Source: a bacterium (lineage in GTDB: Bacteria; Myxococcota_A; UBA9160; UBA6930). From it: a stretch of 64,000 nt of DNA. The translations under genes were made by a program, and so were the position numbers. Below, in pieces: positions 1-21,000 of the stretch; position 1 is the stretch's first letter; each line of letters begins with the position of its first letter. Where the stretch lies: positions 689 through 64,688 of the forward strand of contig JAAETT010000177.1 in NCBI GenBank assembly GCA_024228115.1. Direction: 5' to 3'. The notes under the pieces are model-generated. The model worked only from the letters and a program-made list of their open reading frames with translations, ran no database searches and was not told the DNA's origin.

Positions 1-3000
1 GGTCGACCACCTGCGGGCGGTCGTCGTCAAAGGGCTTGCGCGGGTCCTGCGGCGCATTCGTCTCCTCGCGGCTCCAGAAGCGGCGCGGATCGGCCGCCAC
101 CGCCTCCAGGGTCGCGCCGGCCGGCAGGATCGCCCCGTCCGGAACGACCGTGCGCGGACCGATGCGGACCCCGTCACCCACCTGCGCGCCCGCGCCGATG
201 ACGGCACCGCGTCCCACGTGGACGTCGGCACCCAGCGAGGCACCCTCGCCGACCTTGGCGCCCGACTCGACGCGAACACGGTCGCCGAGCATCGCAGATG
301 CCGAGACGTCGGCCGTCCTTGCGATCTTGACGGCCTCTCCGCGAATCGGCGCCGCCGGGGTCGCGTCCGCGGGCTGCGGCTCCGGCAACGCGGGACTGGG
401 GATCAGCCGAGCGCCCGCGGCCAAGGCCGGGTCGAACCCGGTCAATCCGTCGTGCTCGAAGCCGATGATGTGGGCGAGCTCGTGGGTAACCACGGTCAGC
501 AGGTCGATGCCTGCCACTTCGAAACCATCCGCAGTCTCGACGTCGAATTCACCGTCGTCCGCGGGCGTTTCGTCGATCCACCAGCCGTGGCCAGCCGCAT
601 CGATGTCGATCTCGACGAGCTGCGAAGAAGCCTGGCCGAGCAGCAGCCCCGGTAGATCGACGATCTCGAACCGAACCTCGCTGAGCTCGGCGACGGCGTC
701 TTCGCCGAAGTTCTCGGCCAACCGCGCGATCGCTTCCTCGACCACCGGCGCCAACGCGGTGGGCTCCAGCGAGCCAACCGACGGGCTGTCCGACTGCGGC
801 GCAGAAGCCGCGAGCAGCGGGGAAGGCAACGGCACCGCGGGCGGCGCGACATCCCCCGCCCGAACCTCGGCGAGCAACAGGTTGAAGTCGTCGATGTCGA
901 CGTCCCCGTCTCCATCGAGATCGCTGCCGATGCCGCTGTCCTGACGGTTTCGCAAGTCTGTCGTGAAGAGCGCGAAGTCGGCCTCGCCGACGAGCGCGTC
1001 GTCGTTCAGGTCCGCGAACACGTCACCGATCGTCGACGCCAAGGTCGCCGTCTCGCCTTGGACGGCGGCCAGCGCATCCTCGACCCAGACGCGCGCGGGG
1101 CGATCGTCGGCCGCAGGCGGCGTCGCCTCCGTCGGGTCCAGGAAGGAGAACTCCTCGAGCGAGGTCTCGGACGCAAAGGCGTCGAAGAAGGCGCGCAGCC
1201 CGACGAGACCGATGCCCTGGTCTTGCTCACGCGCGACGTCGAGGGCGTTGCCGAGCAGCAAGTCGACGCCGCCACCGCCCTCGAGAATGTCCCTTCCGGT
1301 GCCACCAATCAAGGTGTCGATGTCGTCGCCACCCAGCAGGATGTCGGCTCCGCCCTCGCCGTTCAGCAAGTCGTCCCCGGCCTCGCCGGCCAGCAGGTCG
1401 TCTCCCTCGCCGCCATTGATCGTGTCCGCTCCCGCACCGCCGAGGATCAGATCGCGGTTCTCTCCGCCGAGCAGTTCATCGGCGCCAGCGCCGCCGTCGA
1501 GGAGGTTCGTGCCCGACCCTCCATCGAGGGCATCCGCGCCCTCCCCGCCCAGCAGCAGGTCGTCGCCCGCGCCGCCGTTGACGACATCGGCGCCGAGGCC
1601 GCCGATCAGGATGTCGGCACCGGTTCCGCCCACCAGGAGGTCTGCGCCGAGGTCGCCGAAGGCGAACACCGAGCGTGTCGCGTCGCTGGCGTCGACGACG
1701 TCGGCGCCCGCGCCGGCCCCGATCCGCAGGTCCTCGATCCGCGCGTCGTGGAAGATCGACTGCAGCACACCCTCGGCCTGGTTCACCGCGACGACTCCAT
1801 CGTTGATGGCGAACCGCTCCGCACGGTGCGTGCCGAGTACCGTCAGCGAGTCTGCGCTGCCGGCATCGTCGGACACCTCGATCGCTGCCTCCACGCTTCC
1901 GTCCCGCGAGAGCTGGACGAGGTACGCGTCGTCGCCGCCGAGACCTCGGAGGGTCACGGTGTCCACCGCGCCGGCCGCATCGGTCGTCGTCAGCGACGGG
2001 AGCTCCCGTACCTCGATCGTGTCCGCACCGGAGGTACCGACGAGTTCGACCTCGCCGGCGAGGGCGTCGGGGGCGAACGTGATCGACGTCGAGGTCAGCG
2101 TGCTGCGCGGCGCCGTGAGCGATCCCCCCAGGTCGATCTGCGAACCGGAGATCTCGACCGAGCCGAGGGTCAGCTCCCTTGCCCAGAGCGCGTCGGCACC
2201 GGCCCCGTCGATCAGCAGCGACGCCGTCCCCGTGGACGGATCGTATTCGATGACGCTCCCGGCCCCGAAGGACAGCCCGCCGAGCGTGTTGTCCGACGCG
2301 GTCGCGAGAAGCAGCCGGCCATCCGAATAGGCGTGAACGGCCGTCACGTCGTCCGCGGTTCCGAGCAAGTCCTGCGAGAAGAACAGCGACGTCGCTCCCG
2401 TGCTGGAGTCGAGTTCGAAGACGTCGCCCGCCCGGTAGGTCTCGCCGTCGATCGTCGCGGTCTGATCCAGCGACAACAGCGGATTGCCGTTCGCCAGGAT
2501 CGTGACCGCGTCGAGATTGGCGGTCGTCCCGAGCACGAACTGCGTCGAGAAGAACGGCGACGCAACCAACGTCTCGGGGTCGAACCTGAAGATGTCGCCC
2601 GGCTGTACCGTGAGCCCCTGGAGTGTCGCCTCCGTCTCGGTCGACATCAGGAAGGTGCCGTTCTCGAGGCGGTGGAAGGCATCGATGTCTTCGTCGTTGC
2701 CCGGCCCGAACAGCGATTCCTCAAAGAGCAGTCCGCCCTGCCCCGTGCCCGGGTCGATCAGCGCGACGTCCCCGTCTGCCGCGAACACGAGCCCGACGGG
2801 CCCGACCTCGCTGCGGGAAACGGCGACACCCGGGAAGCGGTCCAGTGCGGCCTCCTCGGAGGCCGTGATGTCGCCGTCGAGCTGCAGCGTCGTGTCCGCC
2901 GTGATCGTCAGCGAGTCCCCGGCTTCGAGAGAGGTGCCTTCCGCGAAGGTCGCCGAACCGACGTCGATCGACAGCGACTCGTCTGCGCGGAGGCTCACTC

Positions 3001-6000
3001 CATCCGTGACCGACGCATTCCCTGTGACGCTCCACTCGAGGTTCGAGGCTGCTGTCGCGCTCGAGTCTCCGGACGCGATCGCCGAACTCGCCCCGGTGAC
3101 CGACACGTCTTCACCGGCGAGCTCGAAGCCATCGACGAGGAAGAACAGTCCACCATCCACGTCGACGTTGACGTCCCCTCCGACGGAGACCAGGCTGCCG
3201 AGCCCTTCGTCACCGCCGTCCAGCACGACCCCTTGCGCGTCGATCCGGATGCTCGCACGGGCCGGCGCAGAGACGGCATCGAAGAACGAGCCCTCGACCA
3301 ACTCCGTGAGCTCCGACGTCGCCGGATTCCACTCGAGAATGGCACCGCTGTCGATGATCGCGACGCCCGGATCCAGATAGCGTGCGGAACTAACAAAGAG
3401 AAGCCGACCGTCCTCGTAGGCGTGTACAGCGTCGATGGAGCCTTCGCCGATCAGCTCGTACCTTGACGCGTTCGCGATCGCGTCCTCCGCGAAGAACAGC
3501 GAGGCCGTACCGGTCACGATGTCGTACTCGAACACGTCACCCGCCTGGAAGACCTGGCCATCGATCGTGCCGTCGAGCTGTGACGAGATCAGCAGATTCC
3601 CGCTCGGGGCGACGCTGACCGCGTTGACGCCGAAGGTGTCACCGATCTCACCGAGCAAGAGCGCCGTGTCGTCGTTCGGGTCGTAGAGCACGACGGCCCG
3701 GCGATTCACCGTCAGCCCACCGATCGTCACGAGGTTGTTGGCGCTCGAACCGCTGAACGAGAGGACGTATCGGCCGTCGGGCAGCAGGTGGAAGGCGTCG
3801 AGCCCACGGTTGAAGCCCAGCGTCCCGGGGTCGAAGAGCAGCGACGCGGAGTCCGCGACCGGGTCGTAGAAGACGGCCTGGTCGTCGTTGAACAAGAGCC
3901 CGCCGAGCGTCGCCGTACCCGCACCGGCAATCGACAACGCGAGGCCCGGGTCCATCTCGACCGCTTCGGCGAGAAGGGTCGCCCCTCCATCCACCACCAC
4001 GCCGACCGAGGCCGAGATCTCGATGTTGGGCGCGGTGATCGCGGCCCCCTCGTCGAACCCTACGTTGGCCCCGTCGATCGAGACCGATGCGCTCTCGAGG
4101 GAACCACCGACCACTCGCAGATCGTCGCCCGCCGCGTAGTCGGTTCGCCAAGCGACATCGAGCGTCGAACCCTCGATCGTGAGGTCGATGTCCGCATCGA
4201 GCCGGATCGCGACGGCGTCGACCGCGGTGTTCGTGACCGAGAGGTCGTCGTCCTGCGCTTGGATCTCGATCAGCCGGGCTTGAAGCGCGCTGTCGGCCAC
4301 GTCGACCGGACCGGCCGGTGCGGTGACCGTGAGCCTGTCCCCGACGGTCACGCTCGCGCCGTCCATCGAAACGCCCACGCCCGACGGGCCGACCAGGCTC
4401 GTGATCGCGAGAGAATCGGACGCCTCGATCGCCGAGCCCGTTCCGAATTCGACGAAGGCTCCCTGAACCGTCAGCGATCCCTCGGTCGTGACTGCTGCGC
4501 CATCCGTGACCGACACGTCACCGGACACCGACAGGGTCAGGTCCCCTACGATGTCGAGTCGCGTCTGCTCGCCACCGATCGTGATGTTGTCCACGGTCAG
4601 CGACGCGTCGTCGGCCGAGACCTGGAAGCCATCGAGGATCGAAAGGTCGCCGCCTCCCGACGCCACGAGGCTGACGTCCGCGCCGAGTACCCGGAGATCG
4701 CCCTCCCCCGACAGCGTGATGTCGCCCGCCGTGGCCTCGAAGTCCGCATCGATCGCGCGCAGGGAACCGCCGAACGAGACGTTCTGTCCCGTCAGCGCGA
4801 CGCGGCTCGCGTTCGGGCTCAGCGACAGCGCCCCCCACGACCCGGTGATCAGACCCGCATCCAGCACCAGGTTGCCGACCCCGGTGGAGGGATCCCAGCG
4901 CACGACCGCGCCGGTGCTCCAGCTGACGCCCGGAAGCGCGCCGTTGCCGATGGTCGTCATCAGCAGGCTGCCGTCGTCGAGCGCGTGGAGCCCGAAGATG
5001 TTCGAGAACTGATCGCGCGTGAAGGTCTCGCGCGCGAAGTACTTGCTGACCTCGCCCGTCGTCGGGTTCCACTCGAAGGCGTCGCCCCCGAGGAAGCGAA
5101 TGCCGTCGATGTTCGACGTCAGCCTCGACGACATGACCAGGTTGCCGTTCGGCAGCATCGTGACCGCGTCCACGTCCTGGTTCTCGAAGTCGCTGAACAG
5201 GTCCTGGTCGAAGACCAGCGTCGCCGTATCGGTGCGCGGATCGTACGACACGACGTCGCCGTTGCGGAAGTCGAGGCCCCCGAGGGTCGCGTCCTCAGTC
5301 GTCGAGAGCAGGTAGGTCCCGTCACCGACTTCGTGGAACGCATCGATGTTCTCGCCGAGGTCGGCGAATGCCTGTTCGCGGAACAGGATCGAGCTCTCGC
5401 CCGTCACGTCGTCGTGCAGGATCACGTCACCCGCCCCGTAGGGGAGCGTGCCGATCGTGCCGGCGGTGGAGGCGGACAGCGCAAAGCCGTCGCCGTCCCC
5501 GCGCCAGGTCGAGCCTTCCTCGACGCTGACATCGCCACTCGACGTGATCTCCACGTCGCCCACCGCGACGTCGGCGGTGGCCAGCACCTGGACACCCGCC
5601 GCCGTGAGATCGAGCGTGCCTCCGGCGAAGCCCTCGGTCGCCACCACCTCGCCGGTGACGTCGAGAATGATGGTTTGCGCCTCGATGCCGTCCGAGCTGT
5701 CACCTGCGAGTGCCGTCGTCACTCCGCCGACCCCGAGGTCCCCGGCGCGGTACACGTGGAAGACGCCCTCCGAGCCACCTTCCAGGTGGTCCACGTCGAT
5801 CAGGAACGCCTCGCCGGCGGTGCCGATGCCGTCCCGCGCGTACAAGGCGGCGGCCTCGCCCCGAATCTGGGCGCTCCCCCCTCGGTTCAGGATCCGACCC
5901 GACGAAGCGTTCAGCACGATCGCGTGGAGGACCGCGTCCGTATCGACGCCATCCGCAACCGCCTCCGCGACGCTGAGGTCCTGAGTACTCGCGCCGCCGT

Positions 6001-9000
6001 CGGCCGCGACTTCGTTGACATAGCCACTTGCGAGTGCAGTTCGGAGCGTCACCGCCCCCTCGCCGGAGTAGCCACTGTCGAGATCGAGCGGGTTCACCAC
6101 CCCGCCGATGCCGCCGGCCCCGGCCGTCCCTGCGATCAACGTGATGTCGTTGCCGACGACGTCGGCGGCGGGAAGGCTCGGATCGGTTCCGGCCGTCTGG
6201 CCGCTGGCGACCGGATCTTCGGGATCCACCGCATCCGCGCCGTCGAGGATGAACAGCGCCGACTCGAGCCACACGTCCCCGGTTCGAGACAGGATCGTGT
6301 CGACGAGCAGGTTCGCCGAAGTGCCGACGAGCACGACGTCGCCGTTCGCGACCGCCGTGACCCCGCCGAACTCGATGAGCTCCAACGGGTTGTCGACGCT
6401 GCCAATCGAACCGCTCTCAGCGACCAGCACGGCGCCGGAGCTCTGCAGATTGGTGAAGTCGTGATCGAGCCCGTCGACGATGGACCCACCCGTGGGCGCG
6501 GTCAGATGGACGACGCCACCGGAGTAGATCGTCCCGATCTCGAGATCACCAGTCGGTGTGGTCAGATGGATGTCGCCGCGGGCGCGCGCGTTCACCAGGC
6601 CCGACTGCGGGTCGACGATGAAGGGAGCGAGCGCCGTGCCGATCGAGCCGTTGGCGGCTTCGAGCACGAGCTCCCCGGTCGTCAGCGTTCCGGTCAACGC
6701 GAGGTCCCCATCGACCTTCACCCGGACGCTGTCCGTCCCGGCGTCGATGCCGGCCAAGGTCACGTCGTCCTCGGAGCCGAGGTCGACGCGTCCGTCGGCG
6801 GTGATCGTGACCTCGCCACTCGCTCGGATGTCGAAGTCCTCGGCGAGCTGGATCCGCACCGTTTCGATCTGGCCGATCTGGGAACTCGGATCGACGATTG
6901 CGGGGCTCAGCGAGACGCCCGTCGCGCTCTCCGGCACCAGGTCCGTCGCCACCGTGATGGACGTCCCGTCGATGGCGACGATCTCCAGCGCTTCGCCCGC
7001 CGTGTCGTTGAACGACGTGCCTTGGATCTCGAGGAAGCCGCCGACGGCGAACCCGCTGCCGAGCGTCGCACCCGACACCTCGAGGGTGCGCAGATCGGTC
7101 ACGAGCACCTGGATCGCCGCGCCGGTCACGCCGTCGAACGCGATGTAGGTCACGTCTTCGCGCTCCGCCTGTGCCAGCACACCCCTCTGCTCTTCGGTCA
7201 GGGTGATCGGGTCCACCGGACTCGTGTCGATGTCGAACGCGGCTTGCTGTGAGCCGATGCCGGCGCCGTCCACGTCGATCGTCACGTCGACGCCGACGAC
7301 GTTCGGATCCTCGATGTCGACCGTCGTGTCACTGGTCGCGAGCAACAGGCCCGCGCTGTACGTGGTCAACAGCTCGTCCGCGGTCCACTCCCGCGTTCCG
7401 CTCTCGAGGGCGGCAGATTCCTCGGCGGTGAGCGTGTAGGTGAAGTCCGGATCGAAGCTGTCCCCGAAGCTCCCGTAGAAGGCATGCAGCGCGTGGTAGG
7501 CCAGCGTCTCGGCCGCCTCGAGGTCCTCGACCTCGGTCTGCGAGAAGCCGAGGGCGAGCAGGTCGGTCACGGTCGCGTCCGGGAAGGAGAGGACGTGATC
7601 CGGGTCGTAGACGTTGACGCGATAGACGAGCTCGTCGCCGACGGAGAGTCCGGCTGCCGGCAGCGCGTCGCCGACGAGGCCATCGACGGCATCGAAGGTC
7701 AGCAGCTCGCCCGTCGACACGACCGTGAGGCCGTGGTCGCCAGCGATCTCGCTCGCACGGAGCTCGAAGGCTTCGCCCCCGATGCGGTCCGACACCTCGA
7801 TCGTCGACCCGTCGCTCGAGACCACGAACAGCGTCGCGCCGTCTTCGAGGTCCGCGGGTTCGACGCGACTGATGGGGGTGGCGCCGGTCTCGGCCACGAA
7901 GGCCACGAGATCGCCCGTCTCGAGCCCCGCACCCTCGAGCACGATCGTGTCCGCAGCCGGGTCCAGGTCCGCTCCCGGGTCGAACAGCGTCACGGGCAGG
8001 AGCGTCTCGGTCCCGACCAGGTTCAGCAGCGCGAGGCGATCGGAGCCGACCGTGTCCACCGCCAGCGAGAACTGGTCCGTTCCGACGTCGCGGGCGTAGT
8101 AGATCACGCCGCTGTCGAGGCCGACGCCACCTCCCGAATCGCCGCCCCCGTACGCGAGGGCCTCGCCTTCGCTGAAGCCGTGGTCTTCGAGCGTCACGAC
8201 GCCGAACGAATCGAGTAGCGCGACCGCGTCCAGGTCCTCGTCCGCCCCGTCGAAGGATGACCCGTCGAACACGAGGATTGCCGTCGCGGTCCCGTCGGCG
8301 TCATAGGCGACCACGTCGCTGCTGCCGAACGAGAGACCGCCCAACGTGGTGTCGTCGAGGCCTTCGACGGTCAGCAGCAGCAGTTCCGTGTCCCCCACGG
8401 TCAGCACCGACACGCCGTTCACGTTGCGGTCCTGATCGGTGTTGACCGCGGGATCGCTCCCGAAGAGGTCCTCGTCGAACAAGATCGTTGCGGATGCCGG
8501 GGAGCGGTCCCACCGCGCCACGTCGCCATCGCGGATCGTCGCCGACGAGAACTCCAACTCGCCGAGCTCATTGAACCCGATTCGGACGGCGCTCCCGGCG
8601 AGCTCGCCGAGCGTGTCGTCCAGAGTCCCGCGCACCTGGTCGTAGAACTCGTTCAGCGTGTACGTCGTCTGAGGGATGTCCAGACTGCGGCCCGCTCCGG
8701 CGGCGAAGACCGAGAAGCCAGCATTCGGCGTCACCTGGATCTTGTGATTCTCCTTCACGAAGGCGTCGAAGATCGCTCCCCACCCGTCGATGATCGCGTC
8801 AGCGCCGGCCGGACCGCCCTCGAGCCGGGCCTCGATGCCGGTTTGCGTGAAGTCGAGCTGAATCCGAAGCCCGAGGTCGCCCGCCAGGAGAGCCTGGTTG
8901 ATCTGCCCCTCGATCAGTTCGGCCATCTGCTGGCCATCGTTGACGGTGTCGCGGAAGATCGCGTTGCCGATCGTGAACCCGGACACGCCGAGGCGGCTCG

Positions 9001-12000
9001 CGGCGAGTTCGATCTCATCGCGCAGGTTGATCACGCCCGTCCCGCCCGTTAGGCCGGTGAACTCGAGGTCTTCGTCGGGCACCAGGTCGAGCAACTCGAA
9101 GCCCGCGAAGGTGTGCAGGGAGACCACCCAGATTCCTGTGTTGATCTGCCCGACGCTGGCGGTGATCGTGTCGTCGGCAGAGAACAGAACCGAGCCGTCC
9201 GCACTCGTGTGGAACGCATCGATGTTCCAGAGGCCGCTCCCCGCGAAGCGGATTTCGGCTGTTCCGGCCGACGGGTCGTAGGCCACGATGTCGTCGGGTC
9301 CGAACGAGAGCCCCGCCAGGGTCGCGTCGCCGTCGGTCGAGAGCAGGATCGTGCCGTCGTCTTCGACGAACACCGCGTCGACCTGAGCGCTGCCCGACAG
9401 CAGCGACGTGTCGAAGAGCCGCTCATTGGACTCGGCGCTCTGATTGACCTCTCGCAGACCGCCGGTCGCGACCGAGGTGTCCCCGAAGAGGGTCGCGGCG
9501 TCGGTGGTCGACAGCGCCAGGACGTTGGACAGCTCGATGTCGCCGCTGGCGAAGGACGACCCATCCGCGATCACCGCGAAGCCCTGCCCACCGCTCGCGT
9601 CACGGCCGTCGACCTCGAGGAACTCGTCCGCCTCGAAGCGCACCTGGTCCTCGGCGAACTGGACCGCGCCGCCGTCACCCACCGAGACGACGAAGGTCGT
9701 CGCCGGATCGATCGGGTCACGGGCGTTCAGCACGTCGATCCCGTCGTAGGGCTGGGTGTCGCGCAGGTTCCAGTAGCGCCGATACTCCGCCTCACGCACG
9801 GACGCGAACTGCTCCTTCAGCGCGGCGACCTTGTCGTCCACGTCGTCGCCCGTGAGCTGCAGATCGGCCCAGAGCCCACCCTCCAGGTCGGCCAGCGTTC
9901 GGTCGTCCACACGCTCAACCGCGTTGACGTCGATCAGGCTGCCGCCGCCGGCCACGCTGATGCCGACGTTCCCGCCGGCGACGATCTCGCTCACCGGGAA
10001 GTCGAACCCGCCGGAAGAGGAGTCGTAGTCGAGGAAGACGTCGCCCGCCGCGAAGACCTCGAGCGGTGCCATCTGCTCGAATCCGGCGACGCCGTCGCCC
10101 GCATCGCCGTCGATCGTCACGGGAAGCTCTGCGCTTCCGACACCGCCCCCCTCGGCCACGATCAGCAACCGATCGAGAGCGCGCACCGAATCCGCCTCAC
10201 CGCTCCCGACGAAGCCTCCCGCAGTCGAGACTTCCACGGCGCCGAGCACGGACGAGGCCTGGTCGAGCTCGATCGTGCCGTCGCTCACGTTGGTGAGGAA
10301 GACGTCGCCACCCTGGGCGCCAGCCTCGAGGCGCCCGCCGTCGCTGACGAGCGTTTGGAGGGGCTGCTCCTCCGTGCCGATTCCGCCGACGGTTTCGTCG
10401 ACGCCGAAGAGGCGGACGTGATCGCCACCGACGCTGACATCGGGAGACGCGGTGATCGTCTCGCCCACCACGTGGGTCACGCCGTCGGGATTCCGAATGC
10501 CGCCCAGCAGGTTGACGGAGCCCTGGCCGGACTGAATCGACACGTACTCTTCGGCCTCCGGATCGACGGCACCGAAGAACGTGATCCCGATCGGGCGGTC
10601 GGCCTCGATGCTGTGCGTGTGGAGGTTCTGCGTCGTCTGGCGAGTTTCGTAGGTCGACGTGTAGGTCGTCGAGATTCCGAAGGGGTCGTTGTCCGTCTGC
10701 GACGACGAGACCAGCACGGCTTCGCCGGTCGTCTCGACCGACCGCGTGTTGAACGCGTAGCCGCCCGTCACGTCCGGGTCGAGCACGAAGTAAGGCGCAG
10801 TATCGGTCGGCGTGCCGACGGTCAGCACCGTCTCGTCGCCCTGGGTCGTGATCTCCGAGGGGTCCGGCTCGGCGATGTCGAGCCAGTTCTCCGTCGTCTC
10901 CTGGGTCAGCGTGAAGACCGAGCCGGTCTCGACGGCGACGGACCAGTTGTAGCGCCAGCCCTCGGCCGGCTGATAGTCGAGCGTCCCGGAGCTCGACTCG
11001 GCCAGCGTGACCGGGTAGATCCGATTGTGCTCCGTCCCTTCAGGCACCTGGAAGAACAACTGGTTGCCCGCCAGCGCGTCGGCTTCCGTCGCAGCCAGTT
11101 GGAAATCCTGGTAGAGAAGGGAGCCGGGGAGCGGGGGAAGAATGATCGCCCAGAGGATCGTTCCGTCCTCGATCGGCGTGCCATCTGCGTAGCGGAACGG
11201 TTCGTTGCCGTCCGAGTCGAACACCACCGCCGAGGAAACAGACACGTCATTACCCAGTCCATGGCCAGAGTGGCTTTCGAAGGTCCCGGTCAGGGGATCG
11301 TAGAGATGCTCTGTGGTGCCGTCTCCGTTGCCGATGATCGACCTGGGACTTGCGTCGGCGGCGAACAACGACTCCCGCACGCTGCCGTCCGGGAGCCGGG
11401 AGAAGGTCGTGACCGACACGTTCTGGACGTCGATATCGAGCTCGCCGTCCGAGCCGAAGTACACGTCGACCCGAGCGCCGTTCGCGGCGCCCACTGCAGC
11501 TGCGATGGAATCCCGGACGTGGGCCCGATATCCCTCCCAGCTAAAGGTCCCCGCCTTGACGGTGAGGGGTGTGATCACGCCCTGTTGCACGATCGTGAGG
11601 TCGACATCCTCCGTGAGCGTCACGTTGATTCGCTCGGTGAGGACCTCCGACACCCAGTCTTCCAGGAGGACGCGCCGCGCGAAGCTGAGCGAGGGGCCAT
11701 TCAAGGAGATCTTGAGGTCGATGCCCTCTCGATCGAAGTCCAAGTCCGCCCCTCCATCGATCGTGTACAGGGGGTCCTCCGGGAAGCCCGGATCGACGTA
11801 GGAGTTGAAGCTGTTTCTGAGTTGGGCGAGAAGGCCTGTTCCCTCGCTGGCAGTTCCCGCGTTGACCGACCACTTCAACGGGACCGGGGGCTCGAGCGGC
11901 ATTCCGCTCTGGTCGAACTCCTGGACGATTCGCGCGTCGGCAAGACGCGCACCGATATCGAAGTTGTTCCCGAAATTCACGCGGCGCACGACGCCGTCCG

Positions 12001-15000
12001 CCAGGTCGATCAAGTCGTCGATCCCGTCGAACGAGAACGTGGTCTTGGCCTTGAGGGCGTTCTCGTCTCCGAACTGGCCGGAGATGCTCTCCCCGAGAGC
12101 GGGGTCGCGGAACCGGACCACCCCCACACCGGGGTTGGACAGGTCGATCTCGCCCACCGTAACGTCGAAGGTGGTCGAGTTCACGATGTCGACGATCGGG
12201 TAGCCACCGAGCACCCGCACTTCGCCGTTGCCCGTATTCAGCACCCGGCCATCGATCTCGACGAGTCCGCCCGTGCTCCGGATGTCGCCGATCAGCCAGC
12301 TGTTCGCGCCCGCGTCGAAGCCGACCGAGACGCCGTCGACCACGGTCGGGCCGTTCGTCAGGATCTGGCTGCGCAGCCCCGTCGTCAGATCGAGGTCGTA
12401 CCGCTCACGCCCGCTCTCGATGATGCCGTTGAGGTTCAGGTATTCCGCGCGGATGAAGATCTGGCTGGCGCGAATCGCCGTCGCCTCGGACGGCTCCTCG
12501 GCCAGCACGTTCGCGATGGTTTCGGCCGCCGCCGGCGCCGTGACGCCGGGGAGTCCGTCGAGCGCGGACCGCTCGGAGGCCGTGAGGGCCCGGTTCGTAT
12601 GGGAGCCCGCGAGTCCGCCCGGGAAGGCAGCCCGTACCGCATCCTTGACCGAGTCCGCGTAGCTGAGGCCGAACGAGGCATTGAGCTCGGAGTTGGTATC
12701 GGCCCCACCCAGAAGGGTGTTGGCGAAGGTCTGCCACGCGGTCTGTTCTGCCGACGTGCCTTCGGCCACCGCTCCGATCGGGGTGATGTCCGCGAGTTCC
12801 ATCCCGCTGACGATCTGGAACGAGGGCCCGGCCGTCGCCGCGGCCCACGGCTCGAAACCGACGCCATCGATATCGAACTCGGTAACCCCATCCACGATCA
12901 ATCGACCGCCCGCGGTGATCGTCAGGCTGGCCGACGAGATCGTGCCCTCGACGATGATGTCGCCGGTGCCCTGAGACGCGGTCTCGAGCGTCACATCGGC
13001 CGACACCGCATCGATGCCCTGCCCGCCATCCTGCGCGCCCAGGATCGTCAGGTCCGGCCACGTGTAGCGCGTGCCGTTGGCGACGTTGTAGATCGCGACG
13101 TCGAGCGTGTTCTCGATGACGATCTGCGGCACGTCGGTCGCGGTGTTCGGAATCGTGTCGAAGTCCGCTGTCACCGTGGTGTCGTCGAGCGTGACGCCAC
13201 CCGAGGTCTCGTTGCGGATCGAGATCGCGTCGTTGCTCTCGACCGGCAGCGCGTTGAAGAAGAGGCCCCCATTGGTCGGCGGGATGGTCATCCCGGCGAT
13301 CTCCAGGAACGCCGGGGTCTCGTTCGTGACCGTGATACTCGCATCTCCGGGCGCGTCCCAGACACCGGAGCCGACCAGGTCGCCGGTCCGCACCAGCACC
13401 GGCCCGGCCTCGGCCGTCAACGCGCCGATTCGCGCGATCAGTACGTCGACGGTGACGGGAAGGCGGTCGCCGTTGCCCGCGATCGGGGCCCCCAACAGCT
13501 GCTCGACGCCGAGTTCGGTCTCGAGGCGCTCGATCTCTCGCAGATAGAAGTCGCGGAGCTGGATATCGCCCCCCCCGACGGTCGCCAGCCGGGACCTGGC
13601 GTCGTTCAACTCGCCCACCAGCAGGGACGTGTAGTCGCCGCTGGAATTCGACAGGAAGGAGCTGTCGCCGAGCGTGTGCGCGTCGCGCTTGGACGCATCG
13701 AGGGTGAACTGAAGGCGGCCGTCGACCGACTGCACCTCGACCGTGCTCGCCCCGAGAATCGCATCGATCGCTGTCTGCACGTGGGCCACCAGCAAGGCCT
13801 CGGTGGCGAAGCTGCCGGATACGACTTCGATCGTCGAAGAGGTGCCATCGTAGATCAGCTCGAAGATCACGTCCGTCAGCAGTTCGCTACCGCTGACGAC
13901 CGCGTTGAGGGCGCCCTCGGCGACGCCGTCGCTGTAGACCCAGCCCGTGACGCCCAGGCCACCCGCATCGGGCGACGTCGTGTCCCAGCCGGTCAGCTCG
14001 ACCCGCTTGAAGCGCTCGGTGCCGGTCCGCACCGTGCCGTCCATCCGAACGATGCCGACCGTGTCGTTGTCGACGTTGCCCCGGGCGATGCTGGCCGCTC
14101 CGTTGAACTCCCCGCTCAACGAGAAGCCTCCCGCCGTCTGCTCGGCGTTCGCGTACGCGTCGTGCAGCGCCGTCTTGTCCGCCCAGAGGCGAGCGACGCC
14201 GGCGCTCTGCACGAGCGCGTCCGCGGCGACTTCGATGAAGTTCGTCGCGGTCAGCGTGGCGGTCGCATTCAGGTTCTCGCTCGAAATGAGGCTACCGGAG
14301 AAGCCGTCGTGCCGAGCATCGACAGACAGGTCATCCAGGCCGAAGGCTCGATCTGTGCCCGCCAGCAGCGAGACGTCGCCGCGCGCCGACAGCACCGCGC
14401 CCTGCCCCACCACGATCTCGTTGTCGGGCGTCAGCGTCGCAGTGACGGTTCCGTTCACCGGAGTCGCACCGCCATACGTCTCGGTGCTCGACGTGACGTC
14501 GAGCGCGCCGTCGGTCCGTGCCTCGAGGACCAGCTGGCCGGGGCTCACCAACGTCGCGTCCTCCGCGATGTCGATGCGCGCCGTGACGTCGTCGGCCTCG
14601 ACCGAGGTGGTCGTGTCATTGACCGCGACACCGCCGCCGGTGCCCAGCACCACCGAACTCTGGACATCGATCTCGTTCTGGACGTTCAGCGTAAAGACGT
14701 CGTCGTCGCTGACGGCGCCAATCACTTCCAGCACCGCGTCGGCACCCACCTCGATCACGGAGTCGAGTTCCAGCGTCGTCGAGGTATCAACCCCCCCGCC
14801 GGTCAGCGCTCCGCCGCTCGCAGCCCAGAAATTCGCCCGGACTGCACCGACGCCATCCGAAACCGGATCGAGCTGCGGCTGCGTCAACCGATTGGTGGCA
14901 TCGAGATCGATGTTGCGGGCCTCGATCGTCGACCCGTCGCCGATCTTCGTGCGCACGGTCGGCCGGATCGTGTGCTGGATCGTCGCTCCGCCGCCACTCA

Positions 15001-18000
15001 AGAAGCCACCGGCGATCGCGCGCGTCCGCGAGTTGAACTCGGTCTCCTGCGTCGATTCAACGTCGAGCTGGCCGTCACCGCTCCCAGCCGTCGTCCCGGA
15101 GACCAGGTCGATGTCGACGTTGTGGCCGATTTCGGCGCTCGTCACGGTGGTGAAGTCGAACTCGGGCTCCGCGGCGGCGATCCCGCCGAGGATGCCTCCG
15201 GCCGCGATCAGCGCTTCCATCTCGCCGGTGTGGTTGCCGTCTGCGTTGACCGTGACGTTGTCCGCGACGACCGTCACCGCACCGGGCGTTCCCGACGCCA
15301 CGTCCTCTAGATCCGCACCCAGCCGAGCACGGGTGACGGTATCGACTTCGACCGTGCCCAGGACCCGCCCGACGCCCAAGGCGATCCCGATGCCGATCCC
15401 ATCCGGGTTCGCAGACAGGGTGGCCGTGTTCGTGGCATCGACGAGCACATCGCCGTCGATCGTCAGTTCCGGGCCGGGCTCCACCGCCGCGACGACTTCG
15501 CCACGGTCTCGCGCGTCGGCCGAGGTGCCGACCAAGCCCAGCAGGCCGCCGCCGGAGCTCGCAAAGGCGTTGGATTCCGCTGACAGCTCGTTGGCCGCCG
15601 CCGTCTGGGCCCCTTGGACCGTCAGCGAGGATCCGGTGACATCGCCGGACACACCCGCGAAAACCGTCGCATCGAGATTTGCGTCGGAAAGGGATGCGCC
15701 GATCGCGAGACCGACCGCCACCGACGCACCGTACGCTTCGGCCACCGCACGCGGAGACACTGCGGTCGCGAGCACCGAGACGTCCCCGCCGGTGACGTCG
15801 CCGCCCACCAGGCTTGCGGTCACCGTGGGATTGACCGTGGCTCGCGGCCGCGCCGCGTTCAGCGACGCACCGACGCCGCCGGTCGCGGCCCAGGCATCCG
15901 CGTCTCCATGGATGTCGGCTTCGGCCTCGATCACCACGTCGCCGCCGGCCACCAGCGTCGCATCGTCGACGATGGCCTCGGAGCTGCCCCCGGCATCGAC
16001 GAACGCGAACATCGCGCCGACGCCCAGTCCGAGCCCCACGGCACCGCCGTCGGTCTCGGCCTCCGCGCGGGCCGCGGACTGCGACCGCACCGTCACCGAG
16101 CCAGCCGTTGCCGTGATCGTCGGAGAGACGCTCGACGTCGAGGCGTCCCCGATCAGCGCGCTGACGTCGGCGTTGGCCGTGGTCTCGGACCAACCACCCG
16201 CCGCGGCGAGCGCGAGCGCCCCGGAACCACCGATCGCCTCCGCGCGAGTGGCCTCCGTGACGACCGTGCCGTCGACGAGCACGTTATGCAGCGCTTCGAC
16301 CAGGATGTCACCCGTGGAGGTCAGCACGGACGCATCGGCAATGGATGCCCGCACCGTGGGCGTGTTTCGCGACAGCGCCACACTCGCGCCGAGCGCCGCG
16401 GTACCCGCAACCGCGATGCCGACCGAGAAGGCCTCGGGGTCCGCCTCGCTCCGGGCTCGCACCAGCAGGTCACCCGTCGCGTCGATGTCGGCGCCGCTGT
16501 CGATCGTCGCGGTGACCGTCGGCGTGAACTCCGCGACCGCCCCCGCGCCGGTGAGTGCGAACAATCCCGGCCCGCCAGAGCCCATCTGCGCTTCGACCTG
16601 GTCGAAGTCGCCGACCGAGGCGGCCTCGACCGTCACGTCGCGGACGGCGCTGTCCTGACCAAAGTCCGTGTCACCGAAGGTGGCCGTCGTCGACCCGGCG
16701 AGGAAACCGGCGCCGTACGAGACGCCGACCGCACCGAGCAGGCCGAGGTTCGCCCCGACGGCCTGGGCTCGGTCGATCGTCCGATCGGCCTGCGCCCGCA
16801 ACGTCAGATCACCACCGCCGAGGTCCAACGTCGCGCCATCGCCGATCGTCGCGGCCTGGGAACTGCGATCGTTCACGACGGCGATCACCGCGCCACCGGC
16901 CGTGCCGGCCGCCTGCCCCTGGAAGGCCAGGGAGTACAGCGTCGACTCGTACAAGGCCTCGACGACCAGCGCCTCCCCGGCACCGCCGCTCAGCGTGACG
17001 GTCGCACCGGCCCCGACGAAGGCATCGACCGAGTTGCGCAGCGTGCCGATCGCGACACTTCCGCCCGCGGCGATCACACCCACGCCGACCTGGCCGGAGA
17101 TCTGATAGACGTCCGCGACGTCGACGGCTCGCACGTTCAGGCTCGCACCGGAGCTGACCGAGGCGCCCGACCCGACGAAGGCGGTCGTGCCCTGGACCGC
17201 GCCATCGCTGGCCAGGGCGCTCGCCGACGAACCCGACGGCACCTGCAGCAGGCCGTCGCGCAGGCCGTCGGTCAGACTCCCGAGGAAGCTCTCCGTGTCC
17301 GTCGATCCGAGGGCCGCGTAGTCATCGATATTGCCGGCCAGGGTGCTCCCGGCACTCGTGGCCTCGCTGTACTCGGAGGACAGCGCATCGGCCGTCACCA
17401 CGGTTTCTTCCGATGAGTCCGCCGTGTTTCCATCCTCGTCGCGCTGCTCGATCTCGATCGACGAATCGAGTCCGGACCCGATCAACCACACCGAGACGGC
17501 GCCGGTGATCGTCCCGATGCCGGCGCCGAAGCTCACCGCGTAGCTCTCGACCACCTCGTCGGACAACGCCAGCACATCGACGTCGTTGAGAGCCGCCACG
17601 TCGCCGAGAATCGACGCGTTCGTGTCATTGCGGATGAGGCCGACGTCCACGGCTCCGGCGACGGAGACGAGGCCACCCGCACCGCCTCCGGCGGCGCCCA
17701 GGGCCTGAACCTCGTTGGCCGCAACGACGCGGACCTTCTGATCGGAGGCCGCACGGGTCCCGTTGTCCGCCCGCCGGTTGACGCGCGCGTTCGCTTCGAT
17801 GGATGCGGTCGTGTCCGAGTCGATTTCTTCGTAGGTCCAACCGCCCGCGAGCCCGAAGTAGATGCCGCCGTTGGCCGTCGCGCCGATCTGGAACAGCTCC
17901 TCGCTCGAGGTCGCCTGCACCGCGACGCCCGCGAAGTCGGCATCCGTCTGATAGATCGAACCGTCTGCGCCGTGGTTGGTCAGGGTTCTGCCTGCCGTAT

Positions 18001-21000
18001 CGCGCTCACCGGAGAGGACGTTGGTGAGGCCCGTCGACTGGCCGAGTGCATCGACCGTCGCGTAGTCCCCGATGAAGGCCTGTGTGTCCTTCTCGATCTC
18101 GGCGTAGGCCCAGCCGATCCCCAGGCCCCCGTACTTGCCACCCGAAACGCCGCCGCCAAGCGCCCAGTGCTCGGTCGCATCGTCGGCGTGCACGAGCACG
18201 TTGCCACCGGCGAAGACCAGCGCACCGTCCTGGACGGCCTGGCCCTCGAGCGCCGTGGCGTCATCGCCGATGAAGGCCTTCGTCGACGTGGTCAGGAACG
18301 CGAGCGTGCCAGAACCACCGCCGCCGCCGGCTCCGCCCCCCGCGAGGGTGGCACCGACCATCACGTGGTCTTCGATCGCACGGGCCGAGACGACGACATC
18401 CTGCTCGGCGTAAACCTGCGCTCCGTCATCGATGTAGGCCTCGGTCGTCGCGTCGAGCAGGCTCGTGTCGATCGCGATCGCCGCACCCAGGCTCTTCTGC
18501 GCGGTCGCGGCCGCGACCGCGGCACCCAGGCCTTGGCGGAAAAAGTCGTTCCCGGCTGCAACGAGCACGCTCTGCGCGTCCCCCGCAGTCGCCGAGCCAT
18601 CGTCGTCCGGATCCTCGTTGATGATCGCGTCCTCGGCGACCCGGGCCGAGGTCAACGTCGTGAAGTCCGTCACCACGCCACCCACCGCGGCCGCGAAGAG
18701 CCCCTCCTGCGCCGTCGACACGGTCGCCGACATACCCATGACGGCGAGGTCGTCCATGTTGATCGCGGTGACCGCGACACCCTGGATGGCCGTCGTTTCC
18801 ACCGCGGACTGGCGTTTCTGGGTCAGCGACTCCTCATCCGCCTCGCTCGCGTTCGAGGTGTTCTGCGGTGTCAGATCGACATCGTCGAAATCGCCCGGCG
18901 CACCGATGTCGAAGGTGGCGAGGTCGGGGATCTGGTCGCGATCTTCGACATCCACGGCGACATCGGAGGCGAGCTCCGTATCGACGAAGCTGACGTCGAA
19001 TTCGCCCGTCGCGACGGAGACGCCGCTGCGCGTCGCGAGCCCGACGACCTTCGCGTTCTCGCCGACGACGGCTTCGGTCACTTTGCGGAACTGACCCGCG
19101 GTGATCCCAATCCCGATGCCCGAGCCGTTGTCCGAGTAGGCCACGTTGCCGGCGAGGAAGTCCAGTTCGGTGTCGTCGACCGCAGACACGATGACGTTGC
19201 CCTGGGCGACCAGGGAGGCACCGCCAGCAGGTGTCGTCGCTCCGGCGATCAGCGCCTGCGTCTCGATCCCACCTTGGAAGAAGGTCGCATTGCCGAGGAA
19301 ATTCCCCGAGAGGCCCAGCCCCCCTGATGACCCGCCGCCAACGTCGGCCGACGCACCGATGGATACGGCGACTGCGAATAGATCTTCGCGGGAATCGGCC
19401 TGAACTTCGATGTTGTTGTCAGCCTCGAGGTCGGCTCCTGCACCGACGATCGCCTGCGTGACCTTGTCGAGCACGACGCCACCGACGCCAACGACGCCCG
19501 CTGCGCCCTGCTTGCTGCGCGCGACCGAGACGCCACCCACGACGGACGTCATCGTCGTTGCGCTCGCAGCGAGCAAGGTCAGACTCGCGTCCGAGACCAG
19601 CAGGTCACCATCGCTGGCGGCAATCTGGGCGTTCTCACCGACTTCGGCCACCGTGACCTCGGTCAGGATGCTGCCCCCGAGCTGAAGCGAGGCGGCCGAA
19701 TCGCCGAAGGCGCCCGTGAAGGCGATCGGGAACATCTCCTCGAATGAGGTCGCGACGATCGCGACCCCGGTGACGCTGGCGGTCAGCTTGTTGCCATCGC
19801 CGTCCTTCTGTCCGGTGAAGACCGAGCTCGAACCTTGCTCACCCTTCGCGGTGATCTGGGCGAAGTCACCCACGGTCGCGCGGGTGTCATCCACGCGATC
19901 CAACCACGCGACGGCGAAGCCAAGCGCGATGGAGTCGCTATTCGCAAGCGCGGCGTTCCCGTCGATGACGTCGAAGTCGAAGTCGCTGTCGGCGGCGATC
20001 ACGACGTTCCCTTCGGCCGTGACCTTCGCGGCGCCCGCCGCCGAGGTGGCGTCGTCACCGATGTACGACTGTGTGTCGACGTCGATGTCGTAGAGCCCCG
20101 CGGAGCCGACGAACGTGATCTCGTCCCCCGAATATCCGCCCGCGATCGCGAAGCCGGACACGCCGAGTTGCGAGAAGGCCCCGACTCCGACATGCACACC
20201 GGCGTTCACCGTCACGCCATCATCGATGAAGGCCGTGACGTCCTGGTCGACCCGAAGGATGTCGAAGGCGCCCGCCACGGATGCGTTGTCGGACGAGATC
20301 GCCAGCGAACCTGCGATCTTGAGCGACTCGATCTCGCTCTTGCTCTCGACCGACACGCTGCCACCAGCATTCACTGTGGCATTGGAGATCGCCGCGGTCG
20401 CCCCGGAACCCTCAATGGAGTCGTCGAAGCTCTCAGAGAAACGACCACTCGTCTTGCCCGAGATCCCCGAGGTGAAGAGGTCGACGATCGCGCTGAACGC
20501 GGCAGGGCTCGCCTCGCCGAACTCGGTCGCGACGGCTGCGACCGCTTCGTCGCTGGCGTCTGCCGCCGAGAAGGTGTCGTCAAAATCATCGCTCTCCAGC
20601 GCTGCGTCGGTGCCGGTGAAGCTGATGGCGCCGCCGATTCCCCAAGCGGTCGCGGACCCCGCGAAGGCGAGCTGAGCCGAAGCCGTGCTGTCTCCGAGCT
20701 CGACGGCACCTCCGACAGCCACGCTGTCGATCTCCGTCAACGAGAGCGCCGCAACGTCCACGTCGCCCCGGGCCGAAACGTCTCCTTGAAGGATCGCCGT
20801 GACATCGTTCTTCGACGTGCCCACGTCGGCGGCTCCCGCCAAGGTCGACCCTCGCCCGAAAGCCAGGGTGCCCGCGAAGGTGAAGGCCTGGAGGTCGTTC
20901 GCCGCGTAGACCGCAACGCCCTGGTCTGCATGGGCTGCGGTAGCGTTCTCGGAGCCTTGATGGATCGATGCGGAATCGGCGACCCGTGCGACCGTGTCCG

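What the first reader, a model, noticed from the sequence alone, without database searches (positions are those of the whole stretch)
1..1669. The RTX block is not the end: a dockerin-like pair, a canonical metzincin motif and a hexapeptide-like helix follow, and the ORF is still open
In classical type-1 secretion substrates the RTX repeats sit just upstream of the C-terminal signal. Here about 15 nonapeptides (1262-1669) are followed by several more elements. First comes a duplicated EF-hand segment resembling a dockerin (860-1015). Then GHGWWIDETPADDGEFD...DLLTVVTHELAHIIGFEHD, an exact HExxHxxGxxH (452-484). Then a Pro-rich linker and a hexapeptide-like stretch (106-292). The frame continues past base 1. 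The protein therefore carries a second, differently built peptidase-like motif at the opposite end from the first, and the true C-terminus and secretion signal are unknown.
Basis: partly seen in the sequence, partly recalled or inferred. Interest (0 to 1): 0.6.

Follow-up and report, generated by a model that had tools for sequence, protein, structure and literature searches.

The report
Conserved tail of a giant surface protein
Bases 1-1669 encode the conserved last ~550 residues of one giant (at least 16,756-residue) bacterial surface-type protein: calcium-binding repeats, a dockerin-like pair, a stripped-down matrixin-like zinc domain and a short beta-helix, an arrangement also found in a few uncharacterised metagenomic proteins.

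Summary
The ORF is open from the ATG at 50269 to base 2 (16,756 codons) and runs off the left edge.

- **RTX block:** 15 in-register nonapeptides. Pfam scores 82.5 bits.
- **Dockerin-like pair:** fails Pfam on its own (9.5 bits). A profile of orthologous segments hits solved type-I dockerins at E 1e-9.
- **HExxHxxGxxH:** it lies in a ~125-residue module found in at least 5,759 protein clusters, usually near C-termini. The module is a divergent matrixin: 57 of 60 members hit Peptidase_M10. This copy has Phe where at least 90% of members have the Met-turn Met. A Pro-rich linker replaces the usual following helix.
- **Hexapeptide stretch:** 13 perfect hexads (Hexapep 39 bits).

The whole cassette is conserved. 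It is 41.7% identical over 571 residues to P0148, a partial RTX giant. P0010 and P0095 share the part from the dockerin to the end. The beta-helix fusion is therefore real and not an indel artefact. These relatives end 41-59 residues after the helix. The window shows 34, so probably only about 5-30 residues are missing.

The left flank could not be recovered. No type-1 secretion genes were seen, and the secretion route and function remain inferred. The N-terminus carries a LEPR-XLL leader.

Verdict: a new variant of a known kind, of moderate interest.

The parts
2..50269 (-). Giant ORF of at least 16,756 residues. ATG at 50269, in-frame upstream stop at 50282-50284, open at the left window edge.
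50129..50173 (-). N-terminal LEPR-XLL leader motif (LEALEPRILLSA, residues 33-47), preceded by a strongly basic stretch.
   Evidence: NCBIfam NF012209 scores 28.8 bits against a cutoff of 17
49412..49426 (-). N-terminal HELGH (residues 282-286), the only other HExxH in the protein. Its domain (residues 127-293) is 43% identical to the N-terminus of P0036.
   Evidence: No Pfam, NCBIfam or PDB support
1253..1657 (-). RTX beta-roll block: 15 in-register nonapeptides (residues 16205-16339). It is the only RTX block in the protein.
1022..1252 (-). Conserved post-RTX segment (residues 16340-16416; GLVGLRAFFDAF...DRPARVWV). A role as the beta-roll cap is inferred.
   Evidence: 46% identical to P0148. 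The capping role is an inference.
860..1021 (-). Divergent type-I dockerin: two EF-hand-like Ca loops, each followed by a helix (residues 16417-16470). The first loop has Ala where Gly is usual.
   Evidence: Pfam Dockerin_1 scores only 9.5 bits, E 1.5. A profile of orthologous segments hits solved type-I dockerins at E 1e-9 over the full length. 54-59% identical to P0010, P0095 and P0148.
773..859 (-). Pro/Ala/Ser-rich linker (residues 16471-16499).
401..772 (-). Mini-matrixin (M10-like zincin) module, residues 16500-16623, with the family motifs DLPG..LGQ, DAAGHGWWIDETPADDGEF and DLLTVVTHELAHIIGFEH.
452..484 (-). HELAHIIGFEH = HExxHxxGxxH (residues 16596-16606). Phe16612 occupies the column that holds Met in at least 90% of the family.
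338..400 (-). Pro-rich linker (residues 16624-16644), in the position where other family members have an acidic helix-like segment (RRLWDDD...).
104..337 (-). Short left-handed beta-helix: 13 hexapeptides, about 4.3 coils (residues 16645-16722).
   Evidence: Pfam Hexapep 39 bits. LpxD in PDB at E 1.5e-7. Hexad register. 37-41% identical to three relatives.
2..103 (-). Charged tail (residues 16723-16756, ...RRFWSREETNAPQDPRKPFDDDRPQVVD), cut by the window edge. It is homologous to tails of relatives that end in ...P(W)W/L-RR-xxx.

Best explanation
Window 1-1669 encodes a conserved C-terminal end-piece of about 550 residues. It belongs to a giant protein (at least 16,756 residues) with an N-terminal LEPR-XLL leader, almost certainly extracellular or cell-surface.

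Order of parts:
1. A 15-turn RTX beta-roll with a conserved following segment.
2. A divergent type-I dockerin (two Ca-binding EF-hand loops).
3. A linker.
4. A ~125-residue matrixin-like zinc-binding module.
5. A Pro-rich linker.
6. A 13-hexad left-handed beta-helix.
7. A short charged tail, ending probably 5-30 residues beyond the window edge.

Shown: the architecture, its conservation as a unit in other giant RTX proteins, and the family assignment of each part.

Inferred mechanism:
- The two Ca-dependent elements fold only once outside the cell.
- The dockerin then tethers the C-terminal end to a cohesin-bearing partner. Cohesin-plus-module proteins exist in the same family.
- The zinc module keeps the full His-Glu-His-Gly-His site but has lost the Met-turn Met and the following helix. 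It is therefore either a specialised, weakened peptidase (self-processing or shedding) or a metal-dependent binding domain.
- The short beta-helix is structural, most plausibly an oligomerisation or spacer element, and not an acyltransferase.
For: - Single ORF with consistent GC3 to base 2.
- RTX 82.5 bits and Hexapep 39 bits, both above the Pfam cutoffs.
- LEPR-XLL 28.8 bits against a cutoff of 17.
- The cassette aligns to P0148 at 41.7% identity over 571 residues. Per-part identity to the three relatives is 37-59%.
- P0010 and P0095 share the dockerin, module, beta-helix and tail, and have true stop codons.
- The dockerin profile hits type-I dockerins 2y3n_B, 6kgc_B and 1daq_A at E 1e-9 to 1e-6.
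- The module family has 5,759 clusters at E<=1e-3 and lies a median 55 residues from the C-terminus.
- 57 of 60 members hit Peptidase_M10, best E 1.3e-14.
- The family profile aligns to karilysin (1.2e-4) and MMP-11 (4.6e-4) through the Met-turn.
- The AF2 model of the module has pLDDT 80.7. Its top Foldseek matches are almost all zinc peptidases: selecase (prob 0.97) and MMP-11 (TMq 0.52).
- Cohesin (PF00963) plus module proteins exist: P0166, P0204, P0089 and P0230.
- The His in the beta-helix (DVHVG) is not conserved in relatives, and only 78 residues of helix are present.
Against: - No experiment exists for any family member, and literature searches found none.
- The window's own dockerin and M10 scores are below the Pfam cutoffs.
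- Foldseek E-values are all at or above 0.12.
- The beta-helix part of the AF2 model has low confidence, pLDDT 30-40.
- No cohesin partner was identified in the window.
- The true C-terminus, the downstream genes and the organism are unknown, because the source contig is not in any searchable collection.
- Loss of the Met-turn Met and of the following helix leaves catalytic competence open.
Confidence: 0.6

Rival explanations
1. The protein is a classical type-1 secretion substrate. An uncleaved C-terminal signal lies just beyond the window. The dockerin, zincin and beta-helix are passenger domains that exit first, and the RTX block ratchets the rest out.
For: - A genuine 15-repeat RTX block lies in the last 4% of the protein.
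- Relatives end in acidic stretches followed by hydrophobic or basic residues.
- HlyD-like adaptor genes lie next to module-bearing giants in L001 and L003.
Against: - The N-terminus has a LEPR-XLL leader, which type-1 substrates do not need.
- No ABC, MFP or TolC gene lies in the 14 kb upstream.
- None lies in the 10 kb downstream of the closest cassette relative, P0148.
- The ATPase beside relatives in L003 is SecA2-like and not an ABC exporter.
- At least 417 residues separate the RTX block from the end.
- RTX blocks sit hundreds to thousands of residues from the C-terminus in several family members.
Confidence: 0.22
2. The tail works like a polymorphic-toxin end. The zincin module is a built-in releasing peptidase that cuts off the C-terminal beta-helix piece, or sheds the giant protein, after export.
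For: - The module is typically the penultimate element, followed by variable short tails.
- Built-in releasing metallopeptidases upstream of C-terminal payloads are documented for polymorphic toxins (PMC3482391).
- The zinc site is fully intact.
Against: - The beta-helix has no toxin-like features, and no immunity-like gene was seen.
- The tails after the module are mostly 20-60 residues, too short for payloads.
- The Met-turn Met and the following helix are lost in this subfamily.
Confidence: 0.12
3. The hexapeptide stretch is an artefact. A separate LpxD-like acyltransferase gene was fused to the giant ORF by a sequencing indel or an assembly chimera.
For: The best solved-structure matches of the stretch are LpxD (E 1.5e-7), and the alignment includes the linker before the helix.
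Against: - Three independent metagenomic proteins (P0010, P0095, P0148) carry the same module, Pro-linker, helix and tail in one frame, with 37-41% identity in the helix.
- GC3 is continuous across the junction.
- Only 13 hexads are present, with no LpxD N-terminal or C-terminal domain.
- There is no stop in the frame.
Confidence: 0.02

Closest known systems
[quoted passage not shown]
   Same: N-terminal basic stretch plus LEPRxLL motif, giant size, an RTX block and an M10-type zinc motif near the C-terminus.
   Different: This protein is twice as long. Its zincin is a ~125-residue mini-module placed after the RTX block and not a full serralysin before it. It also has a dockerin and a beta-helix. 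About 10,000 residues have no Pfam match.
Matrixin / karilysin catalytic domain (MEROPS M10A, Pfam PF00413)
   Same: HExxHxxGxxH on a helix preceded by DLLTV. In the family consensus, Met lies 7-8 residues after the third His, as in the MMP ALM Met-turn. Family members hit PF00413 (57 of 60), and the family profile hits karilysin and MMP-11.
   Different: The domain is about 40 residues shorter and has no structural-zinc S-loop. In this copy the Met is Phe and the C-terminal helix is replaced by a Pro-rich linker. It scores below the Pfam cutoff (15.9 bits scanned within the 800-residue tail; 19.9 bits for the module scanned alone; cutoff 24).
Serralysins (M10B) and other RTX type-1 secretion substrates
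   Same: A zinc metzincin motif and an RTX beta-roll in the same polypeptide.
   Different: The order is reversed (RTX first, then the zincin). Several hundred residues follow the RTX block. An N-terminal leader is present, and no type-1 secretion genes were seen.
Cellulosomal type-I dockerins (e.g. PDB 2y3n_B, 1daq_A)
   Same: A duplicated ~22-residue segment, each copy a Ca-binding loop plus a helix. The profile match covers the full length.
   Different: The context is not cellulolytic. The first loop has Ala at the usual Gly position. This copy fails the Pfam cutoff. No cohesin partner was identified.
LpxD / LpxA-type left-handed beta-helix (Pfam PF00132)
   Same: Perfect [LIV]-G-x4 hexad periodicity. 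The best sequence matches are the first coils of LpxD.
   Different: Only 13 hexads (about 4 coils). There is no nucleotide-binding or C-terminal domain and no conserved catalytic His. It is extracellular and embedded in a surface-protein tail, as in P0002 and P0003.
Dockerin-type giant proteins of Omnitrophota (bioRxiv 10.1101/2023.11.21.568195)
   Same: Bacterial giants of more than 10,000 residues with dockerin or EF-hand Ca-binding elements, large unannotated stretches and SecA-related components nearby.
   Different: A different lineage (67% GC here). There is a single dockerin and not arrays of them, plus an RTX block and the mini-matrixin cassette. No internal repeats were found at BLASTP E<1e-10.

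Membership tests
RTX repeat protein (Pfam PF00353) | Tandem GGxGxDxUx nonapeptides scoring above the curated cutoff | tested here: met
   82.5 bits against a cutoff of 23. 15 in-register repeats, residues 16205-16339.
Type-1 secretion substrate | RTX block immediately upstream of a C-terminal secretion signal in roughly the last 60 residues | tested here: not met
   At least 417 residues, including three folded modules, follow the RTX block.
Type-1 secretion substrate | Cognate ABC exporter, membrane fusion protein and TolC genes nearby | tested here: inconclusive
   None in window 50282-64000, and none downstream of relative P0148. The left flank is not recoverable.
Type-I dockerin (Pfam PF00404) | Match to the dockerin model above the curated cutoff | tested here: not met
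   9.5 bits, E 1.5, against a cutoff of 22.9. The orthologous segment scores 14.5 bits in P0010. P0207, which also carries RTX and the module, scores 27.9 bits.
Type-I dockerin (Pfam PF00404) | Duplicated Ca-loop plus helix segment homologous to solved dockerins | tested here: met
   A profile of 5 orthologous segments hits 2y3n_B at E 9.9e-10 and about a dozen further type-I dockerin chains at E<=2e-5, over positions 2-55 of 59. The profile includes P0207.
Type-I dockerin (Pfam PF00404) | Binds a cohesin partner | not testable with these tools
   Cohesin-plus-module proteins exist in the family, but no partner is known for this protein.
Metzincin / matrixin (M10, Pfam PF00413) | HExxHxxGxxH zinc-binding consensus | tested here: met
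   HELAHIIGFEH at residues 16596-16606. Chance expectation is 6e-5.
Metzincin / matrixin (M10, Pfam PF00413) | Conserved Met of the Met-turn downstream of the third His | tested here: not met
   The column holds Met in at least 90% of 70 and of 100 aligned members. The window has Phe16612, and P0010, P0095 and P0148 have Leu.
Metzincin / matrixin (M10, Pfam PF00413) | Score above the Pfam gathering cutoff | tested here: not met
   15.9 bits and 19.9 bits against a cutoff of 24. However, 57 of 60 family members match at E<=0.01, best 1.3e-14.
Metzincin / matrixin (M10, Pfam PF00413) | Zincin catalytic-domain fold | tested here: inconclusive
Metzincin / matrixin (M10, Pfam PF00413) | C-terminal subdomain helix after the Met-turn | tested here: not met
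   A Pro-rich linker (PSPALPEPQPADATPAAP) follows directly. Other members have RRLWDDD..., which aligns with karilysin RQLDNDD.
Hexapeptide left-handed beta-helix (Pfam PF00132) | Hexapeptide repeats above the curated cutoff with regular hexad periodicity | tested here: met
   39 bits against a cutoff of 27. 13 hexads, with an aliphatic residue at the fixed position in 13 of 15 rows.
LpxD-type acyltransferase | Full-length enzyme with catalytic residues and a score above the family cutoff | tested here: not met
   38.3 bits against a cutoff of 207, covering only positions 99-168 of 345. The only His is not conserved in relatives.
LEPR-XLL domain protein (NCBIfam NF012209) | N-terminal LEPRxLL motif above the curated cutoff | tested here: met
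   28.8 bits against a cutoff of 17, residues 33-47.

The most novel reading that the evidence does not exclude
The mini-matrixin module marks a large, undescribed class of exported proteins. These proteins pair an N-terminal [LF]ExLExRxLL (LEPR-XLL) leader with a C-terminal zincin. In some loci they sit next to a dedicated SecA2-like ATPase, HlyD-like adaptors and an intramembrane HExxH protease.

In that reading the module, in cis or in trans, takes part in leader or tail processing of a new sorting pathway. In the window's subfamily a left-handed beta-helix has replaced the C-terminal half of the zincin domain, giving a composite domain with no described counterpart.
Probability: 0.12. Interest if true: 0.75.

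Novelty: new variant of a known kind. Interest (0 to 1): 0.42.

Why it matters
The work gives a defined, conserved end-piece for one of the larger bacterial proteins on record. It also turns an isolated motif sighting into a family.

The ~125-residue matrixin-like module is found in thousands of metagenomic protein clusters. No dedicated Pfam or NCBIfam model matched it here, and the literature searches found no study of it. It is usually near the C-terminus of large repeat-rich surface proteins, and many of those proteins start with the LEPR-XLL leader.

Learning whether this module cuts, sheds or merely binds, and how these giants are exported, would help explain how Planctomycete-like and other environmental bacteria build and anchor very large surface structures. 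In itself, the window's finding is a descriptive domain architecture without demonstrated function.

Tried and rejected
**Recovering the left flank**
- Degenerate-pattern searches with the 420-residue tail in genome contigs and metagenome contigs found nothing.
- Exact 50-mer searches of window 1-50 in both collections found nothing.
- Exact-protein look-ups of three neighbouring window genes found nothing.
- The source contig is therefore not in the searchable collections, so the stop codon and downstream genes could not be seen.

**Homolog searches**
- The word-indexed search with the whole tail gave only 4 hits.
- The same search with the module alone gave none.
- The exhaustive representatives search and a profile query were needed.

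**Structure**
- The first AF2 run, on 267 residues, left the beta-helix at pLDDT 30-40.

**N-terminal HExxH region**
- It has no PDB sequence match and no Pfam or NCBIfam family.

**Rejected or unsupported readings**
- The indel-fusion artefact for the hexapeptide is rejected.
- An acyltransferase function for the helix is rejected.
- Treating the RTX block as proof of type-1 secretion is not justified by the evidence.

**Literature**
- Searches for LEPR-XLL, for matrixin with Planctomycetes and dockerin, and for DUF3467 returned nothing on this module.
Full report
**What is at 1-1669**

The region is not a gene of its own. It is the 3' end of a single minus-strand reading frame. The frame has no stop from the in-frame stop at 50282-50284 down to base 2 (16,760 codons). 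Its first ATG is at 50269, so the protein has at least 16,756 residues and runs off the left edge of the window. In this frame, third-position GC is 0.78-0.92 in every 150-nt block down to base 2. The hexapeptide region is therefore coded in the same frame as the rest. Residue numbers below count from the ATG at 50269.

**Check of each observation**

- **RTX.** Residues 16205-16339 (window 1253-1657) form 15 uninterrupted nonapeptides in one register, nine of them strict GGxGxDx[LIVMF]x. Pfam HemolysinCabind scores 82.5 bits against a cutoff of 23. It is the only RTX block in the protein.
- **Dockerin-like pair.** The pair (DLNDDALVGEADFALF ... DLDGDGDVDIDDFNLLL) lies at window 872-1012.
- **Zinc motif.** HELAHIIGFEH is exactly at 452-484. 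Only two HExxH motifs occur in the whole protein, against 0.07 expected from composition. The expectation for the long motif is 6e-5.
- **Hexapeptide stretch.** It comprises 13 hexads with an aliphatic residue at one fixed position and mostly Gly at the next, residues 16645-16722. Pfam Hexapep scores 39 bits against a cutoff of 27.

All four observations and the open end are confirmed.

**The tail is a conserved cassette**

An exhaustive phmmer search used the 124-residue HExxH module (window 401-772) against 1.84 billion representative proteins. It found 5,759 proteins at E<=1e-3 and 2,202 at E<=1e-10, with up to four copies in one protein.

Three of the fetched proteins carry the same arrangement as the window: module, Pro-rich linker, hexapeptide helix, charged tail. 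These are P0010, P0095 and P0148.

- P0148 is the N-terminally truncated end of another RTX giant. It aligns to window residues 16210-16743 at 41.7% identity over 571 residues.
- Identity by part is 48% for the RTX block, 46% for the post-RTX segment, 54-59% for the dockerin, 47-51% for the module, 37-41% for the beta-helix and 9-27% for the tail.
- P0010 and P0095 also share the dockerin pair almost motif for motif (DLNDDGVINNADYALFEADL...DSGIGSDLN.DGVIDIDDFNILL).

Three independent metagenomic contigs with the same in-frame fusion exclude the indel or chimera explanation for the hexapeptide. These relatives have real stop codons 41-59 residues after the last hexad, ending in ...PWLRRRRH...PWWRRQQN and ...SWWRRLLN. 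The window shows 34 residues after its last hexad. These include a homologous D-x-x-R-x-W-x-R-E stretch. Probably only about 5-30 residues are therefore missing. This is an inference from homology.

**The dockerin**

Scored alone, the window segment fails Pfam Dockerin_1 (9.5 bits, E 1.5). The orthologous segments of P0010 and P0095 score 14.5 and 12.7 bits. P0207, a family member with RTX, dockerin and module, passes at 27.9 bits against a cutoff of 22.9.

A profile of the five orthologous segments hits solved type-I dockerins over nearly their full length: 2y3n_B at E 9.9e-10, and 6kgc_B, 2mte_A and 1daq_A at about 1e-6. The profile includes P0207. The segment is a divergent type-I dockerin. 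Its first loop has Ala where Gly is usual.

**The HExxH module**

Neither Pfam nor NCBIfam returned a model specific to this module. The best Pfam match is Peptidase_M10, at 15.9 bits (within the tail) and 19.9 bits (module alone), against a cutoff of 24. At family level the assignment is clear.

- 57 of 60 members hit Peptidase_M10 at E<=0.01, best 1.3e-14.
- Some members are named 'matrixin family metalloprotease' by NCBI.
- A family profile hits karilysin (1.2e-4), MMP-11 (4.6e-4), fragilysin, MMP-16 and ADAMTS-5 in the PDB. The alignment runs from DLLTVVMHELGHVLG..H through the Met-turn Met into the start of the C-terminal helix.
- An AlphaFold2 model of the module with 100 aligned sequences has mean pLDDT 80.7 and pTM 0.79. 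Its topology is helix, helix, three strands and the HExxH helix.
- The top Foldseek matches in the PDB are almost all zinc peptidases: selecase (prob 0.97, TM 0.54), MMP-11 (TMq 0.52), matrilysin and collagenases. No E-value is below 0.12, so the fold evidence is consistent but weak.

Two defining metzincin features are not met in this copy.

- The column holding Met in at least 90% of members has Phe16612. It has Leu in the three beta-helix-bearing relatives.
- The segment that in other members reads RRLWDDD... aligns with the start of the karilysin C-terminal helix. Here it is a Pro-rich linker.

The zinc site is canonical, but the lower half of a metzincin active site is missing or remodelled in this subfamily.

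**The beta-helix**

The best matches are the first coils of LpxD: NCBIfam 38.3 bits against a cutoff of 207, and PDB E 1.5e-7. Only 78 residues are present. There are no flanking LpxD domains, and the single His is not conserved in relatives.

Other secreted-looking proteins combine long hexapeptide runs with TSP3 or PKD domains (P0002, P0003). A structural role is the most economical reading. Oligomerisation is plausible because such helices are typically trimeric. That is general knowledge about the fold and was not tested here.

**The rest of the protein and the class it belongs to**

- The N-terminus carries a basic stretch and LEALEPRILLSA, which matches the NCBIfam LEPR-XLL domain at 28.8 bits against a cutoff of 17.
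- There are FG-GAP repeats around residues 2950-4400 and a weak Zn-dependent phospholipase C match.
- About 10,000 residues have no Pfam match, and no internal repeats appear at BLASTP E<1e-10.
- At least 25 of the fetched module-bearing proteins begin with the same kind of leader, including most of the long, apparently complete ones.
- P0036 (1,950 residues) shares both the window protein's N-terminal HExxH-containing domain (43% identity to residues 127-293) and the C-terminal module. The 'peptidase-like motif at each end' layout therefore recurs.
- Partner domains in the family are Calx-beta, cadherin-like, cohesin, dockerin, FG-GAP, PKD and LamG-like.
- RTX blocks lying hundreds to thousands of residues upstream of the module are common.

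**Secretion**

Nothing seen supports type-1 secretion specifically.

- The 14 kb upstream holds two PEP-CTERM proteins, a 1,293-residue paralogue of the giant's N-terminal region, an IS66 fragment and assorted hydrolases.
- Downstream of P0148 lies a subtilisin-like gene, then unrelated genes.
- Next to other module-bearing giants (L003, and partly L001) there is a repeated set of genes. It comprises a small DUF3467 gene after each giant and HlyD-like adaptors. It also has an intramembrane HExxH protease fused to a HlyD-like part and a SecA2-like ATPase.

Whether such a set lies left of the window cannot be tested. The source contig was not found by any route.

**Verdict**

The tail is a real, conserved C-terminal cassette of a giant LEPR-XLL-type surface protein. 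It combines two Ca-dependent elements, a remodelled mini-matrixin and a short beta-helix. Its parts belong to known kinds. The module family is large but uncharacterised, and the beta-helix-bearing version is rare (3 of 247 fetched members). Function and export route are inferred, not shown.

Noticed in passing
L003 9276-35493 (JGI 3300057053 Ga0568900_0000205); also L001 12384-14732: Two tandem giants carrying RTX and the module (at least 5,469 and 5,996 residues) are each followed by a 116-residue DUF3467 gene. Next come a GAF plus HlyD-like adaptor, an intramembrane HExxH (daptide/S2P-like) protease fused to a HlyD-like part, a SecA2-like ATPase (E 4e-201 to SecA) and another adaptor. This looks like a dedicated export set for these giants.
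   Followed up: partly
window 50129-50173 (-) and the N-termini of P0005, P0006, P0007, P0011, P0036, P0145 and others: The C-terminal mini-matrixin module and the N-terminal basic stretch plus [LF]ExLExRxLL (LEPR-XLL) leader co-occur in at least 25 fetched proteins. These include most of the long, apparently complete ones.
   Followed up: partly
window 49391-49891 (-), giant residues 127-293: The N-terminal domain with HELGH (residue 282) has no Pfam, NCBIfam or PDB match. It is 43% identical to the N-terminus of P0036, which also ends in the module.
   Followed up: partly
window 51581-55462 (-): A 1,293-residue secreted-looking protein is a paralogue of giant residues 308-1184 (43% identity over 199 residues; three BLASTP segments). 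It has no Pfam family.
   Followed up: partly
window 50723-51403 (-) and 56467-57306 (-): Two PEP-CTERM proteins lie just upstream of the giant gene. One ends in ...VPEPTIAGLICSFALCCWHLRGRRRRV, and the other matches Pfam PEP-CTERM at 28.6 bits. The organism therefore has an exosortase-type sorting system.
   Followed up: no
window about 10142-35281 (-), giant residues about 5,000-13,400: About 10,000 consecutive residues have no Pfam match at E<=1e-3. The whole protein has no internal repeats at BLASTP E<1e-10, which is unusual for a giant surface protein.
   Followed up: no
window 57439-58107 (-): An IS66-family transposase fragment (DDE_Tnp_IS66, E 1e-46) lies between the PEP-CTERM gene and a glycosyltransferase-like gene.
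   Followed up: no
C-terminal tails of module-family proteins (P0031, P0157, P0022, P0170, P0145, P0037 and others): At least three recurrent endings occur after the module...VDxYFAxx...SWLxxFLxNG...DPxxDIxIVx and ...DWIVDV. They may be part of the zincin C-terminal subdomain or may be sorting signals.
   Followed up: no
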